64,000 nucleotides of DNA from Antedon mediterranea (GCF_964355755.1 NC_092670.1:2160201-2224200), one strand, 5' to 3'; positions 1,412 to 36,827 are shown, numbered from the stretch's first letter. Notes: generated by a model not told the origin, from the sequence alone. Translations and numbers: made by a program.

Positions 1412-1612
1412 TAAAGATGTATTATCCCTCAAAAACATGAAAAATGAAGACTAATAAAATCGGACTTTAATAGGTTAAGTTATTCAAAACGAAAAAAAAA
1501 AAATTATTTTTGGTCGGTAAATTTTTTTTCCAATAAAAGTTTTTGGTCAAAGTGAATAACTACCTGTACAGTATTATGTGACAATGACATTGAAATGGCA
1601 TATTTCAAAAAT
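1412..1612 (+). mobile_element. Dispersed repeat fragment (non-autonomous DNA transposon, possibly Kolobok-like); second copy at ~34362-34640
   Basis: gatgtatt(a/g)tccc..aaaaacatgaaaaat...gtcaaagtgaataact...gacatt(g/a)aa..ggcatatt is shared with 34366-34600; this copy begins ttaaag. Confidence 0.5.
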
Positions 1613-1880
1613 TAATTCTTATTTGGACTAATCATTCCCACTCGTACATAGGCCAACTTTAAATTAATCATTCTTATACTACTAAATCTAGATTTCAGGA
1701 CAAGTCAAATTAATTGGTAAATGCAACTGCTATACTTGCCAATTAAATAAATGGCAGAAAGTGCAAGATGCTCACCTTCATTCTGAAGGGTAGTTGGTTC
1801 TAATCATGTTTAGTCAAAGTGATTGTTTTATCTCTATAATATTTTATTTACAATTAAATTGATATTACTATGTATCTTCT

Positions 1881-4180
1881 TTATGACTCTTCCATTGGAC
1901 TTTGCGATTGTGACTCCGTCATTTTAGATATCATGTCTGTAACGTCTGTGTGGCCCATATCGTTAGCCAAGTCCAGCGGGGTTATTCCACCCATACTAGC
2001 CTGCACGTCTGCACCAGCTTCTATCAACAATTGACATACATCTTGATGGCCTGATAAAAGAATATATTACATGATTACTTACACCATAATATTTGCTTTT
2101 TGTTTAAATATTTTATTATTAAACTTTAATTTTGAACACCAAGCTTGCATGTATACAATTCTAGGTTTGATTCTCCTGGTAGTTAAACTGCTAAATGCCA
2201 ATTTTTCTTGGTCCACTTAAGCCTACATCCTATTTCTAGGAGATGGGCTCACAAGTAAGAACCTTGGCTCCCACATAGGTCTTGTTATTAGATTTTAAAA
2301 AACCAGGCCCCAAAAATCTATAATTAAAGGAAGCTTTAGTTGTTTAATTCCTAAAGCTTTGTCTACACTATCAAACTAGTGTGACAAAAAAATGTTGATG
2401 TGCCAAAATATGGTAGTGATATGATATCACAATGTTCATACATTTTTTGTCACATAAAGTTTGATAGAGTAGACAGAGCTTTATAACACTGGTACCTTGC
2501 ATAACAGCCAGGTGAAGTGGTGTAGCATCATCACATTTAACGTTCTTGCAGTTCACGTTTGCATTTCCTTTCTCCAGTAGCAAACGCACTATTGACATGC
2601 TGCCCATGTTGGCAGCAGTATGAAGCGCCATGTTACCAGAGTCGGCTGGATTGTTTATGTCGGGCCTTGGCTTCACCTGAAAATATCAAAAACAGAATTT
2701 TACTATATATGTTTGTTGTGTATTGTTTTTCAATGTACGTTTTTTACAGGCTCTGCCCTATGTTGTATGTCCGCCATCTTAAATTTGATCTTTTTTTTAT
2801 CAAAATAAAGATTCGATAGTTATTTATATATGAGATAATGTCATACAAAAAAACATACAATTTATAAAATAGTTTGGTTTAGGCATTTATTTTAAAGGAT
2901 ATGAAAAATTGTGTTATAAGTAGTATTTTGATGTGTTTTCATAATCCAAATCGGCCTATTCCATTATAAAAATATAATTCTCCCCATGGGCCTGTACATT
3001 ATTTACTCCTGCATACCTTGGTAAGCAGATACAAGAGAGCAGTTTCCTGGTTCTTGGTGACCGCTTCAAACACCAGTGAGCGTTTCTGAGTATCCAACAC
3101 ATCTGCTGAAATCTTATTAGCCTTGAAATAATAATGTAGAAAATGCACGTATCCCTGACCAGTAGCCACAAATACTCTTTGAGCAGCGGTATCTTTAGAT
3201 TGTTCTTCAATTGGTGTAATATCGGTGTTCGAATCACTGATTAATCTACGGTAAAAATTAACCGCTGCAGTCCAGATATTTAATAAAGCAAACGCCCTCG
3301 TTGCCAGCATCCATTGTGCAAATTTACGATTTCTTGTGGATATTTTGACATCTGTAAGCAGCTCTTTGTACGCGTCAGTTCTGTCAGATGTAAGCGTATC
3401 TAAAATGTCAAGGAATATATATGGTCCACGAAGAGTACACAACCTTGTCGGATACTCTCGTACAACTGCAGAAACCAACTTGCGTAGATCAGTCAATTTT
3501 ACTTTTTGTTGTTCGATTCCTACTTGAAACGCAAATCTAAGTTCATCATTGATTATCCCAATTTCAAGTTTATACAGATCTAGTTTCTGTCTGTCAGGGA
3601 TTTTTTGTAGCCAAAAATTTGCAAAATGGACAAAGTTGTAATTATTATGACACCATGACGATAACTCATTTACCAATTGGTTCGCACGTTTTAAAAAAGA
3701 TTCAACGCAACTTTCATCCATATACTCAAGTACGTTGTCAAAGTTACCAGTAGATGATAGAGGGCGGGCTTCATCACTATTAATTGACCTTGATAAGGAT
3801 GACTGGACAGGTGGTAGTGGTTTTTTAGCTAACTTGAAATCATTCGTATGATTAGACTCATTTTGTTTTGAACCACTGACTTTTCCAGAAAACTGAATTT
3901 CTGCTTTTTTAAACTTATGTTTAGTTTGCTTTGCAGTAGAGGGTGGTTTTGGAACTATGGTAGTATTGATAGCATGATTCACTTTTGCTGAATTTTCTCG
4001 TAGAGTCGTTGTACCATCTGATAAAATGCTCATTGAACTAAATGGACGGACTAAGCTTTCATCGTCGCTATACTCATCATCACTTTCACGGATTGTCAAC
4101 CGTGAAACGCAGACAAGTTCTCGTAAATCTTTTACACTCCGTGACATCTTGTTTTGTTGAATCAAAATGTACAATTGCAT
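1881..4180 (-). CDS. Uncharacterised protein with C-terminal ankyrin repeats (~505 aa); coding exons 4180-3017, 2676-2496, 2050-1881
   Basis: 393-aa ORF spliced at AAG|gtatgc and ttttcag|GTG to KPRPDINNPADSGNMALHTAANMG...DATPLHLAVMQ, then G|gtacc and tatcag|GC to GHQDVCQLLIEAGADVQ..GGITPLDLA..GH. GT-AG sites and phases are consistent; stop TAA at 1883-1881. The start could be the ATG at 4147. Confidence 0.88.
2355..2480. mobile_element. PIF/Harbinger-like MITE family A, copy 1 (intronic)
   Basis: TIR agctttgtctacactatcaaact...agtttgatagagtagacagagct, flanked by TAA/TTA. Confidence 0.8.
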
Positions 4181-5385
4181 TCAATTCAGATTGTTCTTGC
4201 TTTCTGTCTGCTAACAAGTGTGTTGCCTGAACATTTATGTCAAGCTAGAGCTGGCTGCTGTTGAACATGGAACTGCATATCCAGTGGGATAACAAAGCTG
4301 ATAGCAACCCACAGAGGCAGGTGTATGCGACACGTGTATGCAAATTTGAAAAAGAATACAAGTGTACGTGTAATAACTTGCCGACAATTTAAATATTTAA
4401 TAAAATAAGTCATTATTTTGGTTTTATCTTGGGCACATTAGAAGAATCTGTGGAGCAAATATGAAAGTAATTTGTTAGACGCAATACAACTACTTTTGGG
4501 TCGTTTTATACATGAACAGAATCAGAAGAGAATTACACATTCCAGATATTGTTGCCAAGACAGAACAGAGACATTCCCCTTGGCCTACTCTACAAAAAAA
4601 AGCTGGGCCTAAATCTACTCTAGCCTAGGCCTACTACTAAAAAGGCTAGCCGTTCCTTCCAAGAATTTCAACTCATCATCAGGAGATCTCTTTTATTACT
4701 ACCGGATAGATAGGCCTACCTACGCTCTACCTTAGTTAGGCCCTAGGCCTAGCCTAAAATAAAATAAGAAAGGAAAGGCTACTTACTAGCTAGGAGGCCT
4801 AGCCTAATCGAAGTTAGGCGTTAGGCTTTAGTTAGGCCTAATAATATTTATATTTAAGAAATAGTAATATTTACGATTACGATTGTAAATCAAATTCGTA
4901 ATTAAATTCGATCAGGCCTAGGCCCTAGGCCCACTACCACTGTACGAGCCGCAGAGAGATAGAAATGCCAAACAAAAATGTTAATAATTATCGCTTCTCG
5001 TCGTGGAAATTCGATAGAGGGCGTTAACTTACCAAAACATGTTTTTTGAGTTGGGAATTTAGAGCGCGCTGAGTAGAGAGAGCCTGGAAAGAGTTTACTG
5101 GTTGGTACATTTAGAAGATATTATATTTTTTACTCATTTTCACTTTAATTTTTGTAATATATTCTTTCAATCAATAATTAAAATGTACATTAGAATTAAG
5201 TTATTTAACTTATGTATCATTAAGTAAGAGCTAAGTTGTTTTATTGGCTAACCAAAAGGAATCCGTCTGCTGAGCTGACTGGCCATATTCATCATGCATG
5301 TTTGTTATGTATAAGACGGTCTGTCATGGACAGGTTGGTGTTAGGTACGGTGGCCTAGGCTACTCTAGCAATGGTGGTATGTGTG

Positions 5386-5533
5386 GCTTGTGTCAAGCTA
5401 GCCAACAATAAGCCAGCCAACAATAAGCCAGCCCACTTTTATTTTTTCCAGCCAACAATAACTATGAAACGCCGTTTGTGCATTCTTTACATTTTCATTG
5501 TTACTTATGGCTTTTATGGTATTAGGAATTAAA
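5386..5533 (+). repeat. Left unique terminal inverted repeat (148 bp) with three GCCAACAATAA subterminal motifs
   Basis: Reverse complement of 24681-24828; gccaacaataa occurs at 5401, 5416 and 5451. Confidence 0.92.
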
Positions 5534-8500
5534 TATTTGTGAGAAAAACGGCGGATTGTTCCTGGGATTCACTTGGTGGGATTATACTAGGGTACCCCCT
5601 TAGTCGTCCAGTATAAGTTAGAGTGGGACCACTGGTCCCGTTTACTCAGCCCTCATCTTTAAAATTTGAGTGTAACTCAATTACGATTTTTAAAATATAG
5701 TTAAATTTGAAACTGTATTTGTGAGAAAATGGCGGATTGTTCCTGGGAGTCACTTGGTGGGATTATACTAGGGTACCCCCTTAGTCGTTCAGTATAAGTT
5801 AGAGTGCGACCACTGGTTCCGTTTACTCAGCCCTCATCTTTTAAATTTGAGTGTAACTCAATTACGATAAAATTTTTAAAATATAGTGAAAATTGATACT
5901 GTATTTGTGAGAAAATGGCGGATTGTTCCTGGGATTCACTTGGTGGGATTCTATTAGGGTACCCCATTAGTCGTCCAGTATAAGTTAGAGTGCGACCACT
6001 GGTCCCGTTTACTCAGCCCTCATCTTTTAAATTTGAGTGTAACTCAATTACGATAAAATTTTTAAAATAGAGTGAAAATTGATACTGTATTTGTGAGAAA
6101 ATGGCGGATTGTTCCTTGGAGTCACTTGGTGGGATTATACTAGGGTACCTCCTTAGTTGTCCAGTATAAGTTAGAGTGGGACCACTGGTCCCGTTTACTC
6201 AGCCCTCATCTTTAACGTTTGAGTGTAACTCAATTACGATTAATATTTTAAAATATAGTGAAATTTGATACTGTATTTGTGAGAAAATGGCGGATTGTTC
6301 CTGGGAGTCACTTGGTGGGATTATACTAGGTTACCCCCTTAGTCGTCCAGTATAAGTTAGAGTGGGACCACTGGTCCGGTTTACTCAGCCCTCATCTTTA
6401 AAATTTGAGTGTAACTCATTTACGATTTTTAAAATATAGTGAAATTTGATACTGTATTTGTGAGAAAATGGCGGATTGTTCCTGGGAGTCACTTGGTGGG
6501 ATTATACTAGGGTACCTCCTTAGTTGTCCAGTATAAGTTAGAGTGGGACCACTGGTCCCGTTTACTCAGCCCTCATCTTTAACGTTTGAGTGTAACTCAA
6601 TTACGATTAATATTTTAAAATATAGTGAAATTTGATACTGTATTTGTGAGAAAATGGCGGATTGTTCCTGGGAGTCACTTGGTGGGATTATACTAGGTTA
6701 CCCCCTTAGTCGTCCAGTATAAGTTAGAGTGGGACCACTGGTCCGGTTTACTCAGCACTCATCTTTAACATTTGAGTGTAACTCATTTACGATTTTTAAA
6801 ATATAGTGAAATTTGATACTGTATTTGTGAAAAAATGGCGGATTGTTCCTGGGAGTCACTTGGTGGGATTATACTAGGGTTCCCCCTTAGTCGTCCAGTA
6901 TAAGTTAGAGTGGGACCACTGGTCCCATTTACTCAGCCCTCATCTTTAAAATTTGAGTGTAACTCATTTACAATTTTTAAAATATAGTGAAATTTGAAAC
7001 TGTATTTGTGAGAAAACGGCGGATTGTTCCTGAGAGTCACTTGGTGGGATTATACTAGGGTACCTCCTTAGTCGTACAGTATAAGTTAGAGTGGGACCAC
7101 TGGTACTGTTTACTCAGCCCTCATCTTTTAAATTTGAGTGTAACTCATTTACGATTAAAAAAATATAGTGAAATTTGATACTGTATTTGTGAGAAAATGG
7201 CGGATTGTTCCTGAGAGTCACTTGGTGGGATTATACTAGGTTACCCCCTTAGTTGTCCAGTATAAGTTAGAGTGGGACCACTGGTCCGGTTTACTCAGCC
7301 CTCATCTTTAAAATTTGAGTGTAACTCATTTACGATTTTTAAAATATAGTGAAATTTGATACTGTATTTGTGAGAAAATGGCGGATTGTTCCTGGGAGTC
7401 ACTTGGTGGGATTATACTAGGGTACCTCCTTAGTTGTCCAGTATAAGTTAGAGTGGGACCACTGGTCCCGTTTACTCAGCCCTCATCTTTTAAATTTGAG
7501 TGTAACTCAATTACGATAAAATTTTTAAAATAGAGTGAAAATTGATACTGTATTTGTGAGAAAATGGCGGATTGTTCCTTGGAGTCACTTGGTGGGATTA
7601 TACTAGGGTACCTCCTTAGTTGTCCAGTATAAGTTAGAGTGGGACCACTGGTCCCGTTTACTCAGCCCTCATCTTTAACGTTTGAGTGTAACTCAATTAC
7701 GATTAATATTTTAAAATATAGTGAAATTTGATACTGTATTTGTGAGAAAATGGCGGATTGTTCCTGGGAGTCACTTGGTGGGATTATACTAGGTTACCCC
7801 CTTAGTCGTCCAGTATAAGTTAGAGTGGGACCACTGGTCCGGTTTACTCAGCCCTCATCTTTAAAATTTGAGTGTAACTCATTTACGATTTTTAAAATAT
7901 AGTGAAATTTGATACTGTATTTGTGAGAAAATGGCGGATTGTTCCTGGGAGTCACTTGGTGGGATTATACTAGGGTACCTCCTTAGTTGTCCAGTATAAG
8001 TTAGAGTGGGACCACTGGTCCCGTTTACTCAGCCCTCATCTTTAACGTTTGAGTGTAACTCAATTACGATTAATATTTTAAAATATAGTGAAATTTGATA
8101 CTGTATTTGTGAGAAAATGGCGGATTGTTCCTGGGAGTCACTTGGTGGGATTATACTAGGTTACCCCCTTAGTCGTCCAGTATAAGTTAGAGTGGGACCA
8201 CTGGTCCGGTTTACTCAGCACTCATCTTTAACATTTGAGTGTAACTCATTTACGATTTTTAAAATATAGTGAAATTTGATACTGTATTTGTGAAAAAATG
8301 GCGGATTGTTCCTGGGAGTCACTTGGTGGGATTATACTAGGGTTCCCCCTTAGTCGTCCAGTATAAGTTAGAGTGGGACCACTGGTTCCATTTACTCAGC
8401 CCTCATCTTTAAAATTTGAGTGTAACTCATTTACAATTTTTAAAATATAGTGAAATTTGAAACTGTATTTGTGAGAAAACGGCGGATTGTTCCTGAGAGT

Positions 8501-11500
8501 CACTTGGTGGGATTATACTAGGTTACCCCCTTAGTCGTCCAGTATAAGTTAGAGTGGGACCACTGGTCCGGTTTACTCAGCCCTCATCTTTAAAATTTGA
8601 GTGTAACTCATTTACGATTTTTAAAATATAGTGAAATTTGATACTGTATTTGTGAGAAAATGGCGGATTGTTCCTGGGAGTCACTTGGTGGGATTATACT
8701 AGGGTACCTCCTTAGTTGTCCAGTATAAGTTAGAGTGGGACCACTGGTCCCGTTTACTCAGCCCTCATCTTTAACGTTTGAGTGTAACTCAATTACGATT
8801 AATATTTTAAAATATAGTGAAATTTGATACTGTATTTGTGAGAAAATGGCGGATTGTTCCTGGGAGTCACTTGGTGGGATTATACTAGGTTACCCCCTTA
8901 GTCGTCCAGTATAAGTTAGAGTGGGACCACTGGTCCGGTTTACTCAGCCCTCATCTTTAAAATTTGAGTGTAACTCATTTACGATTTTTAAAATATAGTG
9001 AAATTTGATACTGTATTTGTGAGAAAATGGCGGATTGTTCCTGGGAGTCACTTGGTGGGATTATACTAGGGTACCTCCTTAGTTGTCCAGTATAAGTTAG
9101 AGTGGGACCACTGGTCCCGTTTACTCAGCCCTCATCTTTAACGTTTGAGTGTAACTCAATTACGATTAATATTTTAAAATATAGTGAAATTTGATACTGT
9201 ATTTGTGAGAAAATGGCGGATTGTTCCTGGGAGTCACTTGGTGGGATTATACTAGGTTACCCCCTTAGTCGTCCAGTATAAGTTAGAGTGGGACCACTGG
9301 TCCGGTTTACTCAGCACTCATCTTTAACATTTGAGTGTAACTCATTTACGATTTTTAAAATATAGTGAAATTTGATACTGTATTTGTGAAAAAATGGCGG
9401 ATTGTTCCTGGGAGTCACTTGGTGGGATTATACTAGGGTTCCCCCTTAGTCGTCCAGTATAAGTTAGAGTGGGACCACTGGTTCCATTTACTCAGCCCTC
9501 ATCTTTAAAATTTGAGTGTAACTCATTTACAATTTTTAAAATATAGTGAAATTTGAAACTGTATTTGTGAGAAAACGGCGGATTGTTCCTGAGAGTCACT
9601 TGGTGGGATTATACTAGGTTACCCCCTTAGTCGTCCAGTATAAGTTAGAGTGGGACCACTGGTCCGGTTTACTCAGCCCTCATCTTTAAAATTTGAGTGT
9701 AACTCATTTACGATTTTTAAAATATAGTGAAATTTGATACTGTATTTGTGAGAAAATGGCGGATTGTTCCTGGGAGTCACTTGGTGGGATTATACTAGGG
9801 TACCTCCTTAGTTGTCCAGTATAAGTTAGAGTGGGACCACTGGTCCCGTTTACTCAGCCCTCATCTTTAACGTTTGAGTGTAACTCAATTACGATTAATA
9901 TTTTAAAATATAGTGAAATTTGATACTGTATTTGTGAGAAAATGGCGGATTGTTCCTGGGAGTCACTTGGTGGGATTATACTAGGTTACCCCCTTAGTCG
10001 TCCAGTATAAGTTAGAGTGGGACCACTGGTCCGGTTTACTCAGCCCTCATCTTTAAAATTTGAGTGTAACTCATTTACGATTTTTAAAATATAGTGAAAT
10101 TTGATACTGTATTTGTGAGAAAATGGCGGATTGTTCCTGGGAGTCACTTGGTGGGATTATACTAGGGTACCTCCTTAGTTGTCCAGTATAAGTTAGAGTG
10201 GGACCACTGGTCCCGTTTACTCAGCCCTCATCTTTAACGTTTGAGTGTAACTCAATTACGATTAATATTTTAAAATATAGTGAAATTTGATACTGTATTT
10301 GTGAGAAAATGGCGGATTGTTCCTGGGAGTCACTTGGTGGGATTATACTAGGTTACCCCCTTAGTCGTCCAGTATAAGTTAGAGTGGGACCACTGGTCCG
10401 GTTTACTCAGCCCTCATCTTTAACATTTGAGTGTAACTCATTTACGATTTTTAAAATATAGTGAAATTTGATACTGTATTTGTGAAAAAATGGCGGATTG
10501 TTCCTGGGAGTCACTTGGTGGGATTATACTAGGGTACCCCCTTAGTCGTCCAGTATAAGTTAGAGTGGGACCACTGGTCCCATTTACTCAGCCCTCATCT
10601 TTAAAATTTGAGTGTAACTCATTTATAATTTTTAAAATATAGTGAAATTTGAAACTGTATTTGTGAGAAAACGGCGGATTGTTCCTGAGAGTCACTTGGT
10701 GGGATTATACTAGGGTACGTCCTTAGTCGTCCAGTATAAGTTAGAGTGGGACCACTGGTCCGGTTTACTCAGCCCTCATCTTTAAAAATTGAGTGTAACT
10801 CATTTACGATTTTTAAAATATAGTGAAATTTGATACTGTATTTGTGAGAAAATGGCGGATTGTTCCTGGGAGTCACTTGGTGGGATTATACTAGGGTACC
10901 TCCTTAGTCGTACAGTATAAGTTAGAGTGGGACCACTGGTACTGTTTACTCAGCCCTCATTTTTTAAATTTGAGTGTAACTCATTTACGATCAAAAAAAT
11001 ATAGTGAAATTTGATACTGTATTTATGAGAAAATGGCGGATTGTTCCTGGGAGTCACTTGGTGGGATTATACTAGGTTACCCCTTAGTCGTCCAGTATAA
11101 GTTAGAGTGGGACCACTGGTCCGGTTTACTCAGCCCTCATCTTTAAAATTTGAGTGTAACTCATTTACGATTTTTAAAATATAGGGAAATTTGATACTGT
11201 ATTTGTGAGAAAATGGCGGATTGTTCCTGGGAGTCACTTGGTGGGATTATACTAGGGTACCTCCTTAGTTGTCCAGTATAAGTTAGAGTGGGACCACTGG
11301 TCCCGTTTACTCAGCCCTCATCTTTAACATTTGAGTGTAACTCAATTACGATTAATATTTTAAAATATAGTGAAATTTGATACTGTATTTGTGAGAAAAT
11401 GGCGGATTGTTCCTGGGAGTCACTTGGTGGGATTATACTAGGTTACCCCCTTAGTCGTCCAGTATAAGTTAGAGTGGGACCACTGGTCCGGTTTACTCAG

Positions 11501-14500
11501 CCCTCATCTTTAAAATTTGAGTGTAACTCATTTACGATTTTTAAAATATAGTGAAATTTGATACTGTATTTGTGAAAAAATGGCGGATTGTTCCTGGGAG
11601 TCACTTGGTGGGATTATACTAGGGTACCCCCTTAGTCGTCCAGTATAAGTTAGAGTGGGACCACTGGTCCCGTTTACTCAGCCCTCATCTTTAAAATTTG
11701 AGTGTAACTCATTTACGATTTTTAAAATATAGTGAAATTTGAAACTGTATTTGTGAGAAAACGGCGGATTGTTCCTGAGAGTCACTTGGTGGGATTATAC
11801 TAGGGTACCTCCTTAGTCGTACAGTATAAGTTAGAGTGGGACCACTGGTACTGTTTACTCAGCCCTCATCTTTTAAATTTGAGTGTAACTCATTTACGAT
11901 TAAAAAAATATAGTGAAATTTGATACTGTATTTGTGAGAAAATGGCGGATTGTTCCTGGGAGTCACTTTGTGGGATTATACTAGGGTACCTCCTTAGTTG
12001 TCCAGTAGAAGTTAGAGTGGGACCACTGGTCCCGTTTACTCAGCCCTCATCTTTAACGTTTGAGTGTAACTCAATTACGATTAATATTTCAAAATATAGT
12101 GAAATTTGATACTGTATTTGTGAGAAAACGGCGGATTGTTCCTCGGAGTCACATGGTGGGGTTATACTAAGGTACGTCCTTAGTCGTCCAGTATAAGTTA
12201 GAGTGCGACCACTGGTCCCGTTTACTCAGCCCTCATCTTTTAATTTGCGTGTAACTCAATTACGATAACATTTTTTAAATATAGTGAAAATTGATACTGT
12301 ATTTGTGAGAAAATGGCGGATTGTTCCTGGGAGTCACTTGGTGGGATTATACTAGGGTACCTCCTCAGTTGTCCAGTATAAGTTAGAGTGGGACCACTGG
12401 TCCCGTTTACTCAGCCCTCATCTTTAACGTTTGAGTGTAACTCAATTACGATTAATATTTTAAAATATAGTGAAATTTGATACTGTATTTGTGAGAAAAT
12501 GGCGGATTGTTCCTGGGAGTCACTTAGTGGGATTATACTAGGTTACCCCCTTAGTCGTCCAGTATCAGTTAGAGTGGGACCACTGGTCCGGTTTACTCAG
12601 CCCTCATCTTTAACGTTTGAGTGTAACTCAATTACGATTAATATTTTAAAATATAGTGAAATTTGATACTGTATTTGTGAGAAAACGGCGGATTGTTCCT
12701 GAGAGTCACTTGGTGGGATTATTCTACGGTGCCTCCCTAGTCGTCCAGTATAAGTTAGAGTGGGACCACTGGTCCCGTTTACTAAGCCCTCATCTTTTAA
12801 ATTTGAGTGTAACTCATTTACGATTTTAAAAATATAGTGAAATTTGATACTGTATTTGTAAGAAAACGGCGGATTGTTCCTCGGAGTCACATGGTGGGGT
12901 TATACTAAGGTACGTCCTTAGTCGTCCAGTATAAGTTAGAGTGCGACCACTGGTCCCGTTTACTCAGCCCTCATCTTTTAAATTTGAGTGTAACTCAATT
13001 ACGATAAAATTTTTAAAATATAGTGAAATTTGATACTGTATTTGTGAGAAAATGGCGGATTGTTCCTGGGAGTCACTTGGTGGGATTATACTAGGGTACC
13101 CTCTTAGTTGCCCAGTATAAGTTAGAGTGGGACTACTGGTCCCGTTTACTCAGCCCTCATCTTTAAAATTTGAGTGTAACTCATTTACGATTTTTAAAAT
13201 ATAGTGAAATTTGAAACTGTATTTGTGAGAAAACGGCGGATTGTTCCTGAGAGTCACTTGGTGGGATTATACTAGGGTACACCCTTAGTCGTCCAGTATA
13301 AGTTAGAGTGGGACCACTGGTCCCGTTTACTCAGCCCTCATCTTTAAAATTTGAGTGTAACTCATTTACGATTTTTAAAATATAGTGAAATTTGATACTG
13401 TATTTGTGAGAAAACGGCGTATTGTTCCTGAGAGTCACTTGGTGGGATTATACTAGAGTACCTCTTTAGTCATCCTGTATAAGTTAGAGTGGGACCACTG
13501 GTTCCGTTTACTCAGCCCTCATCTTTAACATTTGAGTGTAACTCAATTACGATTAATATTTTAAAATATAGTGAAATTTGATACTGTATTAGTGTAAAAA
13601 TGGCGGATTGTTCCTGGGAGTCACTTGGTGGGATTATACTAGGTTACCCCCTTAGTCGTCCAGTATAAGTTAGAGTGGGACCACTGGTCCGGTTTACTCA
13701 GCCCTCATCTTTAAAATTTGAGTGTAACTCATTTACGATTTTTAAAATATAGTGAAATTTGATACTGTATTTGTGAAAAATGGCGGATTGTTCCTGGGAG
13801 TCACTTGGTGGGATTATACTAGGGTACCCCCTTAGTCGTCCAGTATAAGTTAGAGTGGGACCACTAGTCCCGTTTACTCAGCCCTCATCTTTAAAATTTG
13901 AGTGTAACTCATTTAAGATTTTTAAAATATAGGGAAATTTGATACTGTATTTGTGAGAAAATGGCGGATTGTTCCTGGGAGTCACTTGGTGGGATTATAC
14001 TAGGGTACCTCCTTAGTTGTCCAGTATAAGTTAGAGTGGGACCACTGGTCCCGTTTACTCAGCCCTCATCTTTAACATTTGAGTGTAACTCAATTACGAT
14101 TAATATTTTAAAATATAGTGAAATTTGATACTGTATTTGTGAGAAAATGGCGGATTGTTCCTGGGAGTCACTTGGTGGGATTATACTAGGTTACCCCCTT
14201 AGTCGTCCAGTATAAGTTAGAGTGGGACCACTGGTCCGGTTTACTCAGCCCTCATCTTTAAAATTTGAGTGTAACTCATTTACGATTTTTAAAATATAGT
14301 GAAATTTGATACTGTATTTGTGAAAAAATGGCGGATTGTTCCTGGGAGTCACTTGGTGGGATTATACTAGGGTACCCCCTTAGTCGTCCAGTATAAGTTA
14401 GAGTGGGACCACTGGTCCCGTTTACTCAGCCCTCATCTTTAAAATTTGAGTGTAACTCATTTACGATTTTTAAAATATAGTGAAATTTGAAACTGTATTT

Positions 14501-17500
14501 GTGAGAAAACGGCGGATTGTTCCTGAGAGTCACTTGGTGGGATTATACTAGGGTACCTCCTTAGTCGTACAGTATAAGTTAGAGTGGGACCACTGTTACT
14601 GTTTACTCAGCCCTCATCTTTTAAATTTGAGTGTAACTCATTTACGATTAAAAAAATATAGTGAAATTTGATACTGTATTTGTGAGAAAATGGCGGATTG
14701 TTCCTGGGAGTCACTTTGTGGGATTATACTAGGGTACATCCTTAGTTGTCCAGTAGAAGTTAGAGTGGGACCACTGGTCCCGTTTACTCAGCCCTCATCT
14801 TTAACGTTTGAGTGTAACTCAATTACGATTAATATTTCAAAATATAGTGAAATTTGATACTGTATTTGTGAGAAAACGGCGGATTGTTCCTCGGAGTCAC
14901 ATGGTGGGGTTATACTAAGGTACGTCCTTAGTCGTCCAGTATAAGTTAGAGTGCGACCACTGGTCCCGTTTACTCAGCCCTCATCTTTTAATTTGCGTGT
15001 AACTCAATTACGATGAAATTTTTTAAATATAGTGAAAATTGATACTGTATTTGTGAGAAAATGGCGGATTGTTCCTGGGAGTCACTTGGTGGGATTATAC
15101 TAGGGTACCTCCTCAGTTGTCCAGTATAAGTTAGAGTGGGACCACTGGTCCCGTTTACTCAGCCCTCATCTTTAACGTTTGAGTGTAACTCAATTACGAT
15201 TAATATTTTAAAATATAGTGAAATTTGATACTGTATTTGTGAGAAAATGGCGGATTGTTCCTGGGAGTCACTTAGTGGGATTATACTAGGTTACCCCCTT
15301 AGTCGTCCAGTATAAGTTAGAGTGGGACCACTGGTCCCGTTTACTCAGCCCTCATCTTTAACGTTTGAGTGTAACTCAATTACGATTAATATTTTAAAAT
15401 ATAGTGAAATTTGATACTGTATTTGTGAGAAAATGGCGGATTGTTCCTGGGAGTCACTTGGTGGGATTATACTAGGGTACCTCCTTAGTCGTCCAGTATC
15501 AGTTAGAGTGGGACCACTGGTCCGGTTTACTCAGCCCTCATCTTTAACGTTTGAGTGTAACTCAATTACGATTAATATTTTAAAATATAGTGAAATTTGA
15601 TACTGTATTTGTGAGAAAACGGCGGATTGTTCCTGAGAGTCACTTGGTGGGATTATACTACGGTGCCTCCCTAGTCGTCCAGTATAAGTTAGAGTGGGAC
15701 CACTGGTCCCGTTTACTAAGCCCTCATCTTTTAAATTTGAGTGTAACTCATTTACGATTTTAAAAATATAGTGAAATTTGATACTGTATTTGTAAGAAAA
15801 CGGCGGATTGTTCCTCGGAGTCACATGGTGGGGTTATACTAAGGTACGTCCTTAGTCGTCCAGTATAAGTTAGAGTGCGACCACTGGTCCCGTTTACTCA
15901 ACCCTCATCTTTTAAATTTGAGTGTAACTCAATTACGATAAAATTTTTAAAATATAGTGAAATTTGATACTGTATTTGTGAGAAAATGGCGGATTGTTCC
16001 TGGGAGTCACTTGGTGGGATTATACTAGGGTACCCTCTTAGTTGTCCAGTATAAGTTAGAGTGGGACTACTGGTCCCGTTTACTCAGCCCTCATCTTTAA
16101 AATTTGAGTGTAACTCATTTACGATTTTTAAAATATAGTGAAATTTGAAACTGTATTTGTGAGAAAACGGCGGATTGTTCCTGAGAGTCACTTGGTGGGA
16201 TTATACTAGGGTACACCCTTAGTCGTCCAGTATAAGTTAGAGTGGGACCACTGGTCCCGTTTACTCAGCCCTCATCTTTAAAATTTGAGTGTAACTCATT
16301 TACGATTTTTAAAATATAGTGAAATTTGATACTGTATTTGTGAGAAAACGGCGTATTGTTCCTGAGAGTCACTTGGTGGGATTATACTAGAGTACCTCTT
16401 TAGTCATCCTGTATAAGTTAGAGTGGGACCACTGGTCCCGTTTACTCAGCCCTCATCTTTAACATTTGAGTGTAACTCAATTACGATTAATATTTTAAAA
16501 TATAGTGAAATTTGATACTGTATTTGTGTAAAAATGGCGGATTGTTCCTGGGAGTCACTTGGTGGGATTATACTAGGTTACCCCCTTAGTCGTCCAGTAT
16601 AAGTTAGAGTGGGACCACTGGTCCGGTTTACTCAGCCCTCATCTTTAAAATTTGAGTGTAACTCATTTACGATTTTTAAAATATAGTGAAATTTGATACT
16701 GTATTTGTGAAAAATGGCGGATTGTTCCTGGGAGTCACTTGGTGGGATTATACTAGGGTACCCCCTTAGTCGTCCAGTATAAGTTAGAGTGGGACCACTA
16801 GTCCCGTTTACTCAGCCCTCATCTTTAAAATTTGAGTGTAACTCATTTACGATTTTTAAAATATAGTGAAATTTGAAACTGTATTTGTGAGAAAACGGCG
16901 GATTGTTCCTGAGAGTCACTTGGTGGGATTATACTAGGGTACCTCCTTAGTCGTACAGTATAAGTTAGAGTGGGACCACTGGTACTGTTTACTCAGCCCT
17001 CATCTTTTAAATTTGAGTGTAACTCATTTACGATTAAAAAAATATAGTGAAATTTGATACTGTATTTGTGAGAAAATGGCGGATTGTTCCTGGGAGTCAC
17101 TTGGTGGGATTATACTAGGGTACCTCCTTAGTTGTCCAGTATAAATTAGAGTGGGACCACTTGTCCCGTTTACTCAGCCCTCATCTTTAAAATTTGAGTT
17201 TAACTCATTTATGATCTTTAAAATATAGTGAAATGTGATACTGTATTTGTGAGAAAACGGCGGATTGTTCCTGAGAGTCACTTGGTGGGATTATACTAGG
17301 GTACCTCCTTAGTTGTCCAGTATAAGTTAGAGTGGGACTACTGGTCCCGTTTACTCAGCCCTCATCTTTAACATTTGAGTGTAACTCAATTACGATTTTA
17401 AAAATATAGTGAAATTAGATACTGTATTTGTGAGAAAACGGCGGATTGTTCCTGGGAGTCACATGGTGGGATTATACTAAGGTACGTCCTTAGTTGTCCA

Positions 17501-19214
17501 GTATAAGTTAGAGTGCGACCACTGGTTTCGTTTACTCAGCCCTCATCTTTTAAATTTGAGTGTAACTCAATTACGATAAAAAATTTTAAAATATAGTTAA
17601 AATTGATACTGTATTTGTGAGAAAATGGCGGATTGTTCCTGGGAGTCACTTTGTGGGATTATACTAGGGTACCTCCTTAGTTGTCCAGTAGAAGTTAGAG
17701 TGGGACCACTGGTCCCGTTTACTCAGCCCTCATCTTTAACGTTTGAGTGTAACTCAATTACGATTAATATTTCAAAATATAGTGAAATTTGATACTGTAT
17801 TTGTGAGAAAACGGCGGATTGTTCCTCGGAGTCACATGGTGGGGTTATACTAAGGTACGTCCTTAGTCGTCCAGTATAAGTTAGAGTGCGACCACTGGTC
17901 CCGTTTACTCAGCCCTCATCTTTTAATTTGAGTGTAACTCAATTACGATAACATTTTTAAAATATAGTGAAAATTGATACTGTATTTGTGAGAAAATGGC
18001 GGATTGTTCCTGGGAGTCACTTGGTGGGATTATACTAGGGTACCTCTTCAGTTGTCCAGTATAAGTTAGAGTGGGACCACTGGTCCCGTTTACTCAGCCC
18101 TCATCTTTAACGTTTGAGTGTAACTCAATTACGATTAATATTTTAAAATATAGTGAAATTTGATACTGTATTTGTGAGAAAATGGCGGATTGTTCCTGGG
18201 AGTCACTTAGTGGGATTATACTAGGTTACCCCCTTAGTCGTCCAGTATCAGTTAGAGTGGGACCACTGGTCCGGTTTACTCAGCCCTCATCTTTAACGTT
18301 TGAGTGTAACTCAATTACGATTAATATTTTAAAATATAGTGAAATTTGATACTGTATTTGTGAGAAAACGGCGGATTGTTCCTGAGAGTCACTTGGTGGG
18401 ATTATACTACGGTGCCTCCCTAGTCGTCCAGTATAAGTTAGAGTGGGACCACTGGTCCCGTTTACTAAGCCCTCATCTTTTAAATTTGAGTGTAACTCAT
18501 TTACGATTTTAAAAATATAGTGAAATTTGATACTGTATTTGTAAGAAAACGGCGGATTGTTCCTCGGAGTCACATGGTGGGGTTATACTAAGGTACGTCC
18601 TTAGTCGTCCAGTATAAGTTAGAGTGCGACCACTGGTCCCGTTTACTCAGCCCTCATCTTTTAAATTTGAGTGTAACTCAATTACGATAAAATTTTTAAA
18701 ATATAGTGAAATTTGATACTGTATTTGTGAGAAAATGGCGGATTGTTCCTGGGAGTCACTTGGTGGGATTATACTAAGGTACCCTCTTAGTTGTCCAGTA
18801 TAAGTTAGAGTGGGACCACTGGTCCCGTTTACTCAGCCCTCATCTTTAAAATTTTAGTGTAACTCATTTACGATTTTTAAAATATAGTGAAATTTGAAAC
18901 TGTATTTGTGAGAAAACGGCGGATTGTTCCTGAGAGTCACTTGGTGGGATTATACTAGGGTACACCCTTAGTCGTCCAGTATAAGTTAGAGTGGGACCAC
19001 TGGTCCCGTTTACTCAGCCCTCATCTTTAAAATTTGAGTGTAACTCATTTACGATTTTTAAAATATAGTGAAATTTGATACTGTATTTGTGAGAAAACGG
19101 CGTATTGTTCCTGAGAGTCACTTGGTGGGATTATACTAGAGTACCTCTTTAGTCATCCTGTATAAGTTAGAGTGGGACCACTGGTCCCGTTTACTCAGCC
19201 CTCATCTTTAAAAT
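5534..19214 (+). repeat. Satellite array, left arm: ~75 monomers of 181/186 bp with higher-order repeats
   Basis: Monomer tatttgtgagaaaatggcggattgttcctgggagtcacttggtgggattatactagggtacc...gggaccactggtcccgtttactcagccctcatc...ttgagtgtaactca...atatagtgaaatttgatactg. Anchor spacings are 6281->6462 (181) and 6462->6648 (186). Confidence 0.95.
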
Positions 19215-22200
19215 ATTAATCGTAATTGAGTTACACTCAAATTTTAAAGATAAGGGCTGAGTAAACGGGACCAGTGGTCCCACTCTAACTTAAACTGGAC
19301 AACTAAGGAGGTACGCTAGTATAATCCCACCAAGTGACTCTCGGGAACAATCCGCCATTTTCTCACAAATACAGTATCAAATTTCACTATATTTTAAAAT
19401 ATTAATCGTAATTGAGTTACACTCAAACGTTAAAGATGAGGGCTGAGTAAACGGGACCAGTGGTCCAACTCTAACTTCTACTGGAGAACTAAGGAGGTAC
19501 CCTAGTATAATCCCACCAAGTGACTCCTAGGAACAATCCGCCATTTTCTCACAAATACAGTATCAATTTTCACTATATTTTAAATTTTTTTTACCGTAAT
19601 TGAGTTACACTCAAATTTAAAAGATGAGGGCTGAGTAAATGGAACCAGTGGTCGCACTCTAACTTATACTGGACGACTAAGGACGTACCTTAGTATAATC
19701 CCACCATGTGACTCCCAGGAACAATCCGCCGTTTTCTCACAAATACAGTATCTAATTTCACTATATTTTTAAAATCGTAAATGAGTTACACTCAAATTTA
19801 AAAGATGAGGGCTGAGTAAACAGGACAAGTGGTCCCACTCTAACTTATACTGGACGACTAAGGATGCACCCTAGTATAATCCCACCAAGTGACTCTCAGG
19901 AACAATCCGCCGTTTTCTCACAAATACAGTATCAAATTTCACTATATTTTAAAAATCGTAAATGAGTTACACTCAAATTTAAAAGATGAGGGCTGAGTAA
20001 ACGGGACCAGTGGTCCCACTCTAACTTATACTGGACGACTAAGGGGGTACCCTAGTATAATCCCACCAAGTGACTCTCAGGAACAATCCGCCGTTTTCTC
20101 ACAAATACAGTATCAAATTTCACTATATTTTAAAAATCGTAAATGAGTTACACTCAAATTTTAAAGATGAGGGCTGAGTAAACGGGACCAGTGGTCCCAC
20201 TCTAACTTATACTGGACAACTAAGGAGGTACCCTAGTATAATCCCACCAAGTGACTCCCATGAACAATCCGCCATTTTCTCACAAATACAGTATCAAATT
20301 TCACTATATTTTTTAAATCGTAAATGAGTTACATTCATATTTAAAAGATGAGGGCTGAGTAAACGGGACCAGTGGTCCCACTCTAACTTCTACTGGACAA
20401 CTAAGGAGGTACCCTAGTATAATCCCACCAAGTGACTCCCAGGAACAATCCGCCATTTTCTCACAAATACAGTATCAATTTTCACTATATTTTAAATTTT
20501 TTTTACCGTAATTGAGTTATACTCAAATTTAAAAGATGAGGGCTGAGTAAACGGAACCAGTGGTCGCACTCTAACTTATACTGGACGGCTAAGGACGTAC
20601 CTTAGTATAATCCCACCAAGTGACTCCCAGGAACAATCCGCCGTTTTTTCACAAATACAGTATCTAATTTCACTATATTTTTTAAATCGTAAATGAGTTA
20701 CATTCATATTTAAAAGATGAAGGCTGAGTAAACGGGACCAGTGGTCCCACTCTAACTTCTACTGGACAACTAAGGAGGTACCCTAGTATAATCCCACCAA
20801 GTGACTCCCAGGAACAATCCGCCATTTTCTCACAAATACAGTATCAATTTTCACTATATTTTAAAATTTTTTTACCGTAATTGAGTTACACTCAAATTTA
20901 AAAGATGAGGACTGAGTAAACGGAACCAGTGGTCGCACTCTAACTTATACTGGACGACTAAGGACGTACCTTAGTATAATCCCACCATGTGACTCCCAGG
21001 AACAATCCGCCGTTTTCTCACAAATACAGTATCTAATTTCACTATATTTTTAAAATCGTAAATGAGTTACACTCAAATTTAAAAGATGAGGGCTGAGTAA
21101 ACGGGACCAGTGGTCCCACTCTAACTTATACTCGACGACTAAGGATGCACCCTAGTATAATCCCACCAAGTGACTCCCATGAACAATCCGCCATTTTCTC
21201 ACAAATACAGTATCAAATTTCACTATATTTTTTAAATCGTAAATGAGTTACATTCATATTTAAAAGATGAGGGCTGAGTAAACGGGACCAGTGGTCCCAC
21301 TCTAACTTCTACTGGACAACTAAGGAGGTACCCTAGTATAATCCCACCAAGTGACTCCCAGGAACAATCCGCCATTTTCTCACAAATACAGTATCAATTT
21401 TCACTATATTTTAAAATTTTTTTACCGTAATTGAGTTACACTCAAATTTAAAAGATGAGGGCTGAGTAAACGGAACCAGTGGTCGCACTCTAACTTATAC
21501 TGGACGGCTAATGACGTACCTTAGTATAATCCCACCATGTGACTCCCAGGAACAATCCGCCGTTTTCTCACAAATACAGTATCTAATTTCACTATATTTT
21601 TTAAATCGTAAATGAGTTACATTCATATTTAAAAGATGAAGGCTGAGTAAACGGGACCAGTGGTCCCACTCTAACTTCTACTGGACCACTAAGGAGGTAC
21701 CCTAGTATAATCCCACCAAGTGACTCCCAGGAACAATCCGCCATTTTCTCACAAATACAGTATCAATTTTCACTATATTTTAAAATTTTTTTACCGTAAT
21801 TGAGTTACACTTAAATTTAAAAGATGAGGACTGAGTAAACGGAACCAGTGGTCGCACTCTAACTTATACTGGACGACTAAGGACGTACCTTAGTATAATC
21901 CCACCATGTGACTCCCAGGAACAATCCGCCATTTTCTCACAAATACAGTATCAAATTTCACTATATTTTTTAAATCGTAAATGAGTTACATTCATATTTA
22001 AAAGATGAGGGCTGAGTAAACGGGACCAGTGGTCCCACTCTAACTTCTACTGGACAACTAAGGAGGTACCCTAGTATAATCCCACCAAGTGACTCCTAGG
22101 AACAATCCGCCATTTTCTCACAAATACAGTATCAATTTTCACTATATTTTAAATTTTTTACCGTAATTGAGTTACACTCAAATTTAAAAGATGAGGGCTG

Positions 22201-24680
22201 AGTAAATGGAACCAGTGGTCGCACTCTAACTTATACTGGACGACTGAGGACGTACCTTAGTATAATCCCACCATGTGACTCCCAGGAACAATCCGCCGTT
22301 TTCTCACAAATACAGTATCTAATTTCACTATATTTTTAAAATCGTAAATGAGTTACACTCAAATTTAAAAGATGAGGGCTGAGTAAACAGGACAAGTGGT
22401 CCCACTCTAACTTATACTGGACGACTAAGGATGCACCCTAGTATAATCCCACCAAGTGACTCTCAGGAACAATCCGCCGTTTTCTCACAAATACAGTATC
22501 AAATTTCACTATATTTTAAAAATCGTAAATGAGTTACACTCAAATTTAAAAGATGAGGGCTGAGTAAACGGGACCAGTGGTCCCACTCTAACTTATACTG
22601 GACGACTAAGAGGGTACCCTAGTATAATCCCACCAAGTGACTCTCAGGAACAATCCGCCGTTTTCTCACAAATACAGTATCAAATTTCACTATATTTTAA
22701 AAATCGTAAATGAGTTACACTCAAATTTTAAAGATGAGGGCTGAGTAAACGGGACCAGTGGTCCCACTCTAACTTATACTGGACAACTAAGGAGGTACCC
22801 TAGTATAATCCCACCAAGTGACTCCCATGAACAATCCGCCATTTTCTCACAAATACAGTATCAAATTTCACTATATTTTTTAAATCGTAAATGAGTTACA
22901 TTCATATTTAAAAGATGAGGGCTGAGTAAACGGGACCAGTGGTCCCACTCTAACTTCTACTGGACAACTAAGGAGGTACCCTAGTATAATCCCACCAAGT
23001 GACTCCCAGGAACAATCCGCCATTTTCTCACAAATACAGTATCAATTTTCACTATATTTTAAAAATTTTTTACCGTAATTGAGTTACACTCAAATTTAAA
23101 AGATGAGGGCTGAGTAAACGGAACCAATGATCGCACTCTAACTTATACTGGACGGCTAAGGACGTACCTTAGTATAATCCCACCATGTGACTCCCAGGAA
23201 CAATCCGCCGTTTTCTCACAAATACAGTATCTAATTTCACTATATTTTTTAAATCGTAAATGAGTTACATTCATATTTAAAAGATGAAGGCTGAGTAAAC
23301 GGGACCAGTGGTCCCACTCTAACTTCTACTGGACAACTAAGGAGGTACCCTAGTATAATCCCACCAAGTGACTCCCAGGAACAATCCGCCATTTTCTTAC
23401 AAATACAGTATCAATTTTCACTATATTTTAAAATTTTTTTACCGTAATTGAGTTACACTCAAATTTAAAAGATGAGGACTGAGTAAACGGAACCAGTGGT
23501 CGCACTCTAACTTATACTGGACGACTAAGGACGTACCTTAGTATAATCCCACCATGTGACTCCCAGGAACAATCCGCCGTTTTCTCACAAATACAGTATC
23601 TAATTTCACTATATTTTTAAAATCGTAAATGAGTTACACTCAAATTTAAAAGATGAGGGCTGAGTAAACGGGACCAGTGGTCCCACTCTAACTTATACTC
23701 GACGACTAAGGATGCACCCTAGTATAATCCCACCAAGTGACTCTATGGAACAATCCGCCGTTTTCTCACAAATACAGTTTCAAATTTCACTATATTTTAA
23801 AAATCGTAAATGAGTTACACTCAAATTTAAAAGATGAGGGCTGAGTAAACGGGACCAGTGGTCCCACTCTAACTTATACTGGACGACTAAGGGGGTACCC
23901 TAGTATAATCCTACCAAGTGACTCTCAGGAGCAATCCGCTGTTTTCTCACAAATACAGTATCAAATTTCACTATATTTTAAAAATCGTAAATGAGTTACA
24001 CTCAAATTTTAAAGATGAGGGCTGAGTAAACGGGACCAGTGGTCCCACTCTAACTTATACTGGACAACTAAGGAGGTACCCTAGTATAATCCCACCAAGT
24101 GACTCCCAGGAACAATCCGCCATTTTCTCATAAATACAGTATCAAATTTCACTATATTTTTTAAATCGTAAATGAGTTACACTCAAATTTAAAAGGTGAG
24201 GGCTGAGTAAACGGTACCAGTGGTCCCACTCTAACTTATACTGTACGACTAAGGAGGTACCCTAGTATAATCCCACCAAGTGACTCCCAGGAACAATCCG
24301 CCATTTTCTCACGAATACAGTTTCAAATTTAACTATATTTTAAAAATTGTAATTGAGTTACACTCAAATTTTTAAGATGAGGGCTGAGTAAACAGGACCA
24401 GTGGTCGCACTCTAACTTATACTGGACGACTAAGGGGGTACCCTAGTATAATCCCACCAAGTGACTCCCAGGAACAATCCGCCATTTTCTCACAAATACA
24501 GTTTCAAATTTAACTATATTTTAAAAATCGTAATTGAGTTACACTCAAATTTTAGTGATGAGGGCTGAGTAAACGGGACCAGTGGTCCCACTCTAACTTA
24601 TACTGGACGACTAAGGGGGTACCCTAGTATAATCCCACCAAGTGAATCCCAGGAACAATCCGCCGTTTTTCTCACAAATA
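19215..24680 (-). repeat. Satellite array, right arm (inverted): ~30 monomers
   Basis: Reverse complement of the same monomer from the strand switch at ~19215 to 24680. Confidence 0.95.
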
Positions 24681-24828
24681 TTTAATTCCTAATACCATAA
24701 AAGCCATAAGTAACAATGAAAATGTAAAGAATGCACAAACGGCGTTTCATAGTTATTGTTGGCTGGAAAAAATAAAAGTGGGCTGGCTTATTGTTGGCTG
24801 GCTTATTGTTGGCTAGCTTGACACAAGC
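24681..24828 (-). repeat. Right unique terminal inverted repeat (148 bp)
   Basis: Reverse complement of 5386-5533; followed by the TSD GTATGTGTG. Confidence 0.92.
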
Positions 24829-25309
24829 GTATGTGTGTGAGGAGGGTCAAGGGTAGCTATCAATCAATATGATTTGTTGACCTGTCCTTACTTCAATGCA
24901 GCTAACTAGCCTAGTTGAGGAAATAAGGTTTTTATCGCAAATAGCTTGATTTTTGCGAGGAACATCATTGTTGCACAATAATGCATGATGGGAAAGGTTT
25001 TGGAGCAAACTTCGAGATGCATACGTACAAACAACATATCATATACATATTGTACGTTTGCATCATTGTGACGTTTGCTCACAAACCCTTCCCATCATCT
25101 GCCGCTCACGCTCTTTACGATCAACCTTATTGGGGACTGCTGGGTCTGAACTGTCATTCATTCAAGGTTTTTATTCAATAAAGCTAAAATTTACATTGTA
25201 GCCAAAGGCTAAATTGTGTAAAATTTTACAAAATATATATATATTACTGTCCTGTAATTAACAAATCAATTAATATTAATACTATCTAAAAAGTATTTTT
25301 TTTCATTAC

Positions 25310-26534: not shown

Positions 26535-26692
26535 CATTACGTTGGTTTTAGTTTAGTTTTGTTGGGTGAGTTTAGGTGGTGTGTGTTTAATTCCATTTCT
26601 ACAACGCATCCAGGCGGTTTTTAAATGTGTTGGTAGTTTCGGGAAATGACGACTTCAGTTGGCAAACTTTCCTTCATTTTAGATTGAGAAAA

Positions 26693-36535: not shown

Positions 36536-36827
36536 TATGTCTGGGTATTGGTCAAATACAGTATGGCCAATCATGAAGGTCATTATTCAATACATTATTT
36601 CTGTTAATTGTATTTCAAAGAATGACAGAATGTTATGGATAAAAAATATTAAAATCTAGACTGTGTTGTTGAATACAATAATATGCATGTGTATCCATAG
36701 CAATATTAATATAGAGTATATTGCTTTTTTGAAAAAACGTTCATGTCCAACTTTTTAAACAAATATGAAAGAATAAGATACTATGTAGGCCTGCTCTTTG
36801 CTATTGTATGATCAGTTACTTTACTTA

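What the first reader, a model, noticed from the sequence alone, without database searches (positions are those of the whole stretch)
5377..24837. A 19.4-kb 'mobile satellite': Foldback transposon built almost entirely of inverted 181/186-bp tandem arrays
Seen: an exact 9-bp TSD (GTATGTGTG), 148-bp unique TIRs with perfect inverted identity to ~270 bp, about 75 forward and 30 reverse satellite monomers, and no coding capacity. Known: 9-bp TSDs and modular TIRs typify Mutator-related Foldback elements such as Drosophila FB; Tetris in D. virilis seeded satellite DNA from TIR repeats. Inference: this is an unusually large, young family member that lets a nucleosome-sized satellite be moved into gene-dense euchromatin by a trans-acting transposase. 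It would be a snapshot of transposon-to-satellite transition.
Basis: partly seen in the sequence, partly recalled or inferred. Interest (0 to 1): 0.92.

Follow-up and report, generated by a model that had tools for sequence, protein, structure and literature searches.

The report
Satellite-filled foldback transposon, feather star
A 19.4-kb gene-less stretch of two opposed satellite arrays with intact transposon-style ends sits between two back-to-back genes of a feather star; it is likely a jumping element moved by an enzyme made elsewhere, a clean and large example of a design already described in flies and beetles.

Summary
The anatomy is real: an exact 9-bp target duplication, ends identical for 272 bp, 75 forward and 30 reverse monomers of about 181-188 bp, no coding frame. 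New here: the host is the feather star Antedon mediterranea; the ends carry a terminal palindrome plus short repeats as in the Mutator-type element Muta1; the arms meet at an 8-bp microhomology; each arm grew separately by block duplication; the element splits a head-to-head gene pair (start codons 3.1 kb apart without it, 22.5 kb now). Contig depth in one sample suggests roughly 50 identical ends and about 100 related ends, but this copy's left-arm marker variants are rare in that sample, so most siblings likely carry other arrays. Movement at full size, the transposase and an empty site were not shown. The design is in print (Tetris; Tribolium Rehavkus-like elements with >11-kb satellite termini), and this scan has noted it before in sea urchin genomes (unchecked AI notes). 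Verdict: new member of a known kind, interest 0.4.

The parts
5377..5385 (+). Left copy of the 9-bp target-site duplication
5386..5533 (+). Left outer end (148 bp): 13-bp terminal palindrome at 5386-5398, then three copies of an 11-bp motif in a 15-bp-period repeat; predicted transposase-binding region
   Evidence: sequence; function inferred from Muta1 (PMC5499845)
5534..19214 (+). Left satellite arm, 74 full monomers (39 of 181 bp counting the first, 28 of 186 bp, 7 other) + 1 partial; 6-monomer and 15/16-monomer block duplications, longest exact repeat 1,735 bp
19207..19214 (.). Join of the two arms at an 8-bp microhomology; no middle or inner domain
   Evidence: chance of 8 or more shared bases 0.00033 in 200,000 random joins
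19207..24680 (-). Right satellite arm, 29 full monomers (20 of 181 bp counting the first, 7 of 188 bp, 2 of 186 bp) + 1 partial; 7/14-monomer block duplications
24681..24828 (-). Right outer end (148 bp), identical inverted copy of the left
24829..24837 (+). Right copy of the 9-bp target-site duplication
1884..4180 (-). Context: host FAM220/ankyrin-repeat gene, annotated start codon 1.2 kb from the element, pointing away from it
26693..36191 (+). Context: host RNF216-like RBR ubiquitin-ligase gene, annotated start codon 1.9 kb from the element, pointing away from it

Best explanation
This is a gene-less element with intact inverted ends, a 9-bp target duplication and two opposed satellite arrays; it was likely inserted by a Mutator-type transposase made elsewhere in the genome, likely lost its middle by a microhomology-guided deletion, and likely reached 19.4 kb mostly by local block duplications in each arm. 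Shown: ends, duplication, arm structure, microhomology join, position between two divergent genes. Inferred: (1) a trans-acting transposase binds the terminal palindrome and short repeats and cuts and pastes the element, as shown for Muta1; (2) it landed in the shared upstream region of a head-to-head gene pair, in keeping with the 5'-end preference of maize Mu; (3) the family ancestor had monomers behind each end, since all four end variants seen in run X7 continue into monomer 1; (4) each arm expanded on its own by unequal exchange or slippage, at this site or in an immediate donor; (5) gap repair or hairpin processing joined the arms at 8 shared bases and removed whatever lay between.
For: Exact TSD and ends. 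End anatomy like Muta1/Muta5: 145-151-bp ends, terminal motif, 12-15-bp subterminal repeats, 8-9-bp TSD (PMC5225508, PMC5499845 passages). Family: one X7 contig matches 5451-5560 with 0 differences at depth 1870.6 against 36 for the flank (52x); X4 gives 51.8x; four end variants sum to 96x. Independent arms: identical monomer pairs 49 of 2,701 within left, 6 of 406 within right, 0 of 2,146 between arms; nearest neighbour in the same arm for 92.5% of 103 monomers against 59% mean, 71.7% maximum in 500 shuffles; block copies differ by about 0.1-0.8% in 7 of 8 comparisons, 2.5% in the eighth. Local cargo: left-arm markers at 5592 and 5639 are 18-19% of this element's monomers but 2.9/0% and 4.4/0.4% of depth in X4/X7. 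Microhomology of 6-8 bp marks internal deletions of DNA transposons (PMC3814204 passages). Mu targets 5' ends of genes (PMC7337890 passages).
Against: No transposase is linked to these ends; no whole genome was held, so no second complete copy with its own TSD was seen. Depth of contigs is not a copy number (tool warning), X4 and X7 are one sample and may be the sample the window was assembled from. The X4 share of the left-arm marker (2.9% of an estimated 1,200-2,500 monomers, about 36-71 copies) is more than the 19 here, so one to three other loci may share this array, which would fit a jump at near-full size. Eight element variants carried by 8-28 of 105 monomers are not listed at all, which may partly reflect bias against monomers distant from the laid copy.
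Confidence: 0.55

Rival explanations
1. One reading: the element jumped here at or near its present 19.4 kb, so long satellite arrays are moved as cargo, and most of this satellite in the genome lives inside such elements.
For: Ends are identical and the TSD is undamaged while block duplications inside the arms already differ by 0.1-0.8%, which allows the arrays to be older than the insertion. Rough depth ratio of 13-49 monomers per end for the sample against 52 per end here is compatible with most monomers being inside elements. X4 suggests the left-arm marker occurs at 2-4 times this copy's count. Tribolium TfSat06 is proposed to spread this way (PMC12581902 section 12).
Against: Left-arm markers are rare and a 34% variant is absent here, so most siblings are not copies of this array. 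0 differences in 272 bp cannot be told from 0.5% divergence, so the order of events is undated. Transposition efficiency is said to fall above about 6 kb of cargo (PMC6431247 passage), and the Tetris authors suggest long arrays disrupt transposition.
Confidence: 0.3
2. The ends and TSD are real but the middle or the array length is an assembly product: the true element is longer or has an internal segment, perhaps a transposase gene, that was collapsed.
For: Long near-identical blocks (1,735 bp exact) are hard to assemble; the element is about the length of a typical accurate long read (own knowledge); Tetris and Muta elements have inner or middle domains. No spanning long read could be examined.
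Against: A fold-back read artefact would make the arms mirror images at the join; they share no identical monomer. Overlap assemblers do not join on 8 bases (own knowledge), whereas 8 bases fits repair-made deletions. No N gap. Matching TSDs require a strand switch somewhere inside.
Confidence: 0.1
3. It is a foldback-shaped derivative of another superfamily (Merlin, or P-like such as Galileo) rather than of Mutator/Rehavkus.
For: Foldback shape has evolved in several superfamilies and end length is unreliable for classification. Merlin makes 8-9-bp TSDs and can carry tandem repeats.
Against: Merlin ends begin with GG; these begin with GC. Galileo copies have 7-bp duplications. Terminal palindrome plus short repeats matches Muta1.
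Confidence: 0.08

Closest known systems
TfSat06 elements and Rehavkus-1_TC/-3_TC of Tribolium (PMC12581902; passages and section 12 read; supplementary figures not seen)
   Same: Inverted termini made of a terminal repeat plus satellite monomers; termini sometimes over 11 kb, up to 50 repeats in Rehavkus-3_TC termini; transposition proposed as the means of spread; Rehavkus TSD is 9 bp (PMC6446971 table passage).
   Different: Here no central region or transposase is left and the arms abut; host is a crinoid, whereas that review lists Rehavkus only from arthropods and annelids; no sequence comparison to Rehavkus was possible.
Tetris and TIR-220, Drosophila virilis (PMC4079207; parts 1-4 of 6 read)
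   Same: Non-coding foldback; outer non-repeated domain then about 200-bp tandem repeats; 8-10-bp TSD; long arrays between two outer domains seen by fibre-FISH; no autonomous partner known; Mutator membership only suggested.
   Different: Complete Tetris copies have few repeats (ends up to 1,735 bp), an inner and a middle domain, and expand in beta-heterochromatin; this copy is intact at 105 monomers between two genes. TIR-220 shares 37 bp with the outer domain; here monomer and outer end share at most 8 bp.
Muta1 and Muta5, Aedes aegypti MULEs (PMC5225508, PMC5499845; passages read)
   Same: About 150-bp ends with a terminal (palindromic in Muta1) motif and 12-15-bp subterminal repeats; 8-9-bp TSD; many non-autonomous derivatives.
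   Different: About 3 kb, encode a transposase, no satellite-sized arrays; nine short repeats per end against three here.
FB/FB4, Drosophila melanogaster (PMC8277862 passages)
   Same: Non-autonomous, 9-10-bp TSD, repetitive ends with frequent tandem duplications, thought to be MULE, transposase unknown.
   Different: Ends about 700 bp in that paper; repeat units are much shorter than 181 bp (recalled).
Sea urchin TU elements (recalled; only cited in PMC4079207, primary papers not read)
   Same: Echinoderm foldback elements with modular, internally repeated ends.
   Different: Recalled as a few kb with short repeat units; not compared here.

Membership tests
Foldback-type element (structural class) | Long inverted ends built of a terminal domain and internal tandem repeats | tested here: met
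Foldback-type element (structural class) | Target-site duplication flush with the ends | tested here: met
   9 bp
Foldback-type element (structural class) | Dispersed copies with different flanks and TSDs | tested here: inconclusive
   End depth 52-96 times the flank and the flank contig stops 28 bp into the end; other flanks and TSDs not seen; no genome held
Foldback-type element (structural class) | Inner and middle domains between the arms (variable in the class) | tested here: not met
   Arms abut at an 8-bp overlap
Mutator superfamily (MULE) / Rehavkus | TSD of 8-11 bp (Rehavkus 9 bp) | tested here: met
   ranges
Mutator superfamily (MULE) / Rehavkus | Long ends; in Muta-type elements a terminal palindrome plus short subterminal repeats | tested here: met
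Mutator superfamily (MULE) / Rehavkus | MULE-type DDE transposase in this copy | tested here: not met
   Longest frame 100 aa; expected for a non-autonomous copy, so the copy is filed as MULE-like, not as a proven member
Mutator superfamily (MULE) / Rehavkus | MULE-type transposase in an autonomous partner with the same ends | not testable with these tools
   No genome held; eukaryotic contigs could not be fetched
Merlin | Ends start with GG | tested here: not met
   Ends start with GC; rule
Merlin | TSD of 8-9 bp | tested here: met
P superfamily, Galileo-like | 7-bp TSD | tested here: not met
   9 bp here; 7 bp
Classical satellite DNA | Long arrays free of transposon ends elsewhere in the genome | not testable with these tools
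   Only a rough 1,200-4,700 monomer-equivalents from contig depth

The most novel reading that the evidence does not exclude
Nearly all of this feather star's 0.2-0.9 Mb of this satellite lives inside some tens of intact foldback elements that jump at 10-20 kb size and land at gene promoters, here pushing apart a conserved head-to-head gene pair; with the sea urchin cases noted by this scan, giant satellite-carrying foldbacks would be an undescribed, echinoderm-wide way of dispersing satellite DNA through gene-rich chromatin without any free satellite block.
Probability: 0.2. Interest if true: 0.68.

Novelty: new member of a known kind. Interest (0 to 1): 0.4.

Why it matters
It is a tidy test case for two open points: whether cut-and-paste elements move satellite arrays of 10-20 kb or only seed arrays that grow in place, and whether 19 kb of inverted satellite dropped between two divergent start sites changes their expression. 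The arm-specific block patterns act as barcodes that make the first question answerable from the assembly alone. As a design it is not new.

Tried and rejected
Central join in short-read contigs: none of the 26 listed pieces from X4, X7, X5 and X1 crosses 19207-19214 (1,101 pieces not shown; the longest are kept). A join-specific contig of about 52 bp was expected, but contigs drop rare paths beside very deep ones and a filter removes records, so this is inconclusive either way. Left junction: one contig covers 4300-5413 with 0 differences in X4 and X7, but reaches only 28 letters past the TSD, short of the tool's 31-letter rule for bridging; it shows no branch to an empty site, which is weak because the sample may be the source of the assembly. 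Exact-pattern scans found nothing: end motif in metagenome contigs, monomer motif in metagenome, genome and viral contigs; these are mainly microbial collections. Monomer as tandemised end: rejected, at most 8 bp shared. Monomer as structured DNA: short palindromes exist but folding z = -0.85. Nucleosome periodicity: none at lags 10-11. Fold-back read artefact and larger segmental duplication of the flanks: rejected. The 654-aa frame at 27975 found no homologue as a stand-alone query; it is exon 2 of the RNF216-like gene. The monomer split merged monomers and was replaced. Papers: no description of this element or of a crinoid foldback/satellite (2 hits; 1 hit; 1 hit; 6 hits), listings only except PMC13079724 (passages, nothing relevant); the library lacks most subscription journals and Repbase/Dfam were not available. 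The TAGGCCTA paper search gave only primer and oligo hits. The insertion-site preference claimed in note e1-7909118 could not be tested on one locus.

Full report
Observation. The 9-mer at 5377-5385 recurs at 24829-24837, flush with the ends, and cannot be extended inward or outward; a match of that length at a fixed place has a chance near 8e-6. The element is 19,443 bp. Its ends are exact inverted copies for 272 bp, with 7 mismatches in the first 480. After 148 bp of non-satellite sequence come 74 full and 1 partial monomer on the plus strand and 29 full and 1 partial on the minus strand. The longest open frame is 100 aa, without a Pfam match in the one copy scanned. Three refinements: the right arm has a 188-bp class (7 of 29); the outer end has a 13-bp terminal palindrome and three copies of an 11-bp motif; and the arms stop mirroring each other after monomer 1 (mirror pairs differ by 2 events for the first, 5-18 for the other 28).

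Host and setting. The frame at 2999-4180 matches an Antedon mediterranea protein at 100%, and a RING exon at 34124 matches another at 98%. Mapped back, these are a FAM220/ankyrin gene on the minus strand starting at 4180 and an RNF216-like RBR ligase gene on the plus strand starting at 26693. The genes point away from each other; their annotated start codons would be 3,061 bp apart without the element and are 22,513 bp apart now. The Anneissia japonica orthologues bear near-adjacent locus numbers (LOC117115417 and LOC117115415), which suggests a conserved pair; positions were not checked. Transcription starts are not known, so 'shared upstream region' may include untranslated exons. Maize Mu favours 5' ends of genes, and such insertions often have little effect on expression (PMC7337890 passages).

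Family size. No genome was held, so I used contigs of public runs. Four of 7 listed runs hold most of 4900-5900, all from one sample. In X7 one contig matches 5451-5560 without a difference at depth 1870.6 against 36 for the unique flank; X4 gives the same ratio (51.8). Four alternative contigs over that stretch sum to 96 times the flank, and all four run on into monomer 1. So about 50 ends look like this one and about as many again are variants: some tens of elements. The tool warns that depth is no copy number, and the two runs are not independent. Monomer-equivalents come to roughly 1,200-4,700, or 13-49 per end, against 52 per end here; this is an order-of-magnitude figure only.

History of the arrays. 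Identical monomer pairs number 49 of 2,701 within the left arm, 6 of 406 within the right and 0 of 2,146 between arms. A monomer's nearest neighbour lies in its own arm for 92.5% of 103 monomers (shuffles: mean 59%, maximum 71.7% of 500). The left arm shows 6-monomer and 15/16-monomer blocks, the right 7/14-monomer blocks; block copies differ by about 0.1-0.8% in 7 of 8 comparisons and 2.5% in the eighth. Mean differences within and between arms are similar (10.9, 12.9 and 13.2 events per pair), so both arms draw on one old pool of monomer types and then expanded apart. Comparing 24 variant sites with the runs: two left-arm markers (19 of 75 and 20 of 75 monomers; 0 of 30 on the right) make up 2.9% and 4.4% of depth in X4 and 0% and 0.4% in X7, while a variant at 34% in both runs is in 0 of 105 monomers here. 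Most siblings therefore carry other arrays. Against a purely local origin, the X4 share corresponds to about 36-71 copies, more than the 19 here. Eight further element variants are not listed for the runs at all, which may be rarity or alignment bias.

The join. The arms meet at 19207-19214, eight bases that belong to both; random joins of the two arms give 8 or more shared bases in 0.033% of 200,000 trials. Microhomologies of 6-8 bp mark internal deletions of DNA transposons (PMC3814204 passages). A fold-back read artefact is excluded because the arms are not mirror images. My attempt to see the join in short-read contigs was inconclusive (see Tried and rejected), so it rests on the assembly alone.

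Mechanism. Most likely a trans-acting Mutator-type transposase recognises the outer 148 bp. The model is Muta1, where a terminal palindrome and short subterminal repeats bind transposase and more repeats raise excision (PMC5499845, PMC5225508 passages). The 181-bp monomers share no more than 8 bp with the outer end, so nothing suggests they are extra binding sites; I read them as passengers. The middle was likely lost in repair, and the arms likely grew by unequal exchange or slippage. Whether the last jump came before or after most of that growth is open: I give 0.55 to mainly local growth, 0.3 to a jump at near-full size, 0.1 to a misassembled middle. A non-Mutator transposase (about 0.08) is a separate question; Merlin fails on the first two bases and Galileo on TSD length.

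Comparison with what is known. Tetris of Drosophila virilis has the same plan, 8-10-bp TSDs, and long arrays between two outer domains on DNA fibres (PMC4079207, parts 1-4 of 6). In Tribolium, TfSat06 forms inverted termini sometimes over 11 kb in Rehavkus-like elements, with transposition proposed as the means of spread, and Rehavkus-3_TC termini hold up to 50 repeats (PMC12581902 section 12; its supplementary figures S14 and S16, not seen, bear on how close the match is). A 2025 review covers the general route from transposon-held repeats to satellites (PMC12628747 passages). I found no description in a crinoid. This scan's earlier notes report the same design in sea urchin genomes at 10-43 kb, one with a 181-bp monomer and a 9-bp TSD; a sequence look-up found no match between them and this element, and I could not check those notes.

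Verdict. Real, intact, large and well placed for follow-up, but a new member of a known kind: a non-autonomous, MULE-like foldback element with satellite arms. It works like Tetris or Rehavkus; formal membership awaits a transposase. Interest 0.4.

Noticed in passing
window 2345-2486, 32760-32875, 35549-35730, 36823-37011, 41169-41298, 50775-50911, 52700-52849, 58104-58253: Eight copies of a 120-190-bp miniature inverted-repeat element with about 25-bp inverted ends and a variable number of internal 21-bp repeats, in introns and between genes; unrelated to the large element.
   Followed up: partly
window 4626-4840 and 25429-27797: 14 of the window's 19 TAGGCCTA sites (0.61 expected by shuffling) cluster on the two sides of the element, around the 5' ends of both genes; one more lies 30 bp before the first dynein frame. 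Possibly a marker of gene 5' regions; no paper found.
   Followed up: partly
table 5, run X4: joint 4639 to 5386: One contig at depth 149 (about half the flank depth) places the element's first base after 20 letters like the TAGGCCTA-rich stretch: perhaps a second, heterozygous insertion near such a motif. Only 20 letters on the short side, so weak.
   Followed up: no
run X1 (organism A on record), 5408-5686: A run from another recorded organism covers the end and monomers but not the flank, and shows only the variant letters of the end; the family may be shared with a relative, with fewer monomers per end, or coverage may simply be low.
   Followed up: partly
window 28806-29546: A 171-bp (57-codon) tandem repeat of 4.4 copies, 94% alike, lies in frame in exon 2 of the RNF216-like gene.
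   Followed up: partly
window 19207-19558: The two innermost right-arm monomers carry the 5-bp insertion typical of the left arm and absent from the other 28 right-arm monomers; R29 looks like a hybrid. May record exchange between arms near the join.
   Followed up: no
window 38346-64000: Exons of an axonemal-type dynein heavy chain gene on the plus strand (Pfam DHC_N1, AAA_6, AAA_7), with intronic minisatellites of 32 and 29 bp.
   Followed up: no
window 26886-26948 and 54555-54684: A 63-bp stretch in the first intron of the RNF216-like gene matches (83%) one arm of a 130-bp hairpin at 54555-54684; probably another small element.
   Followed up: no
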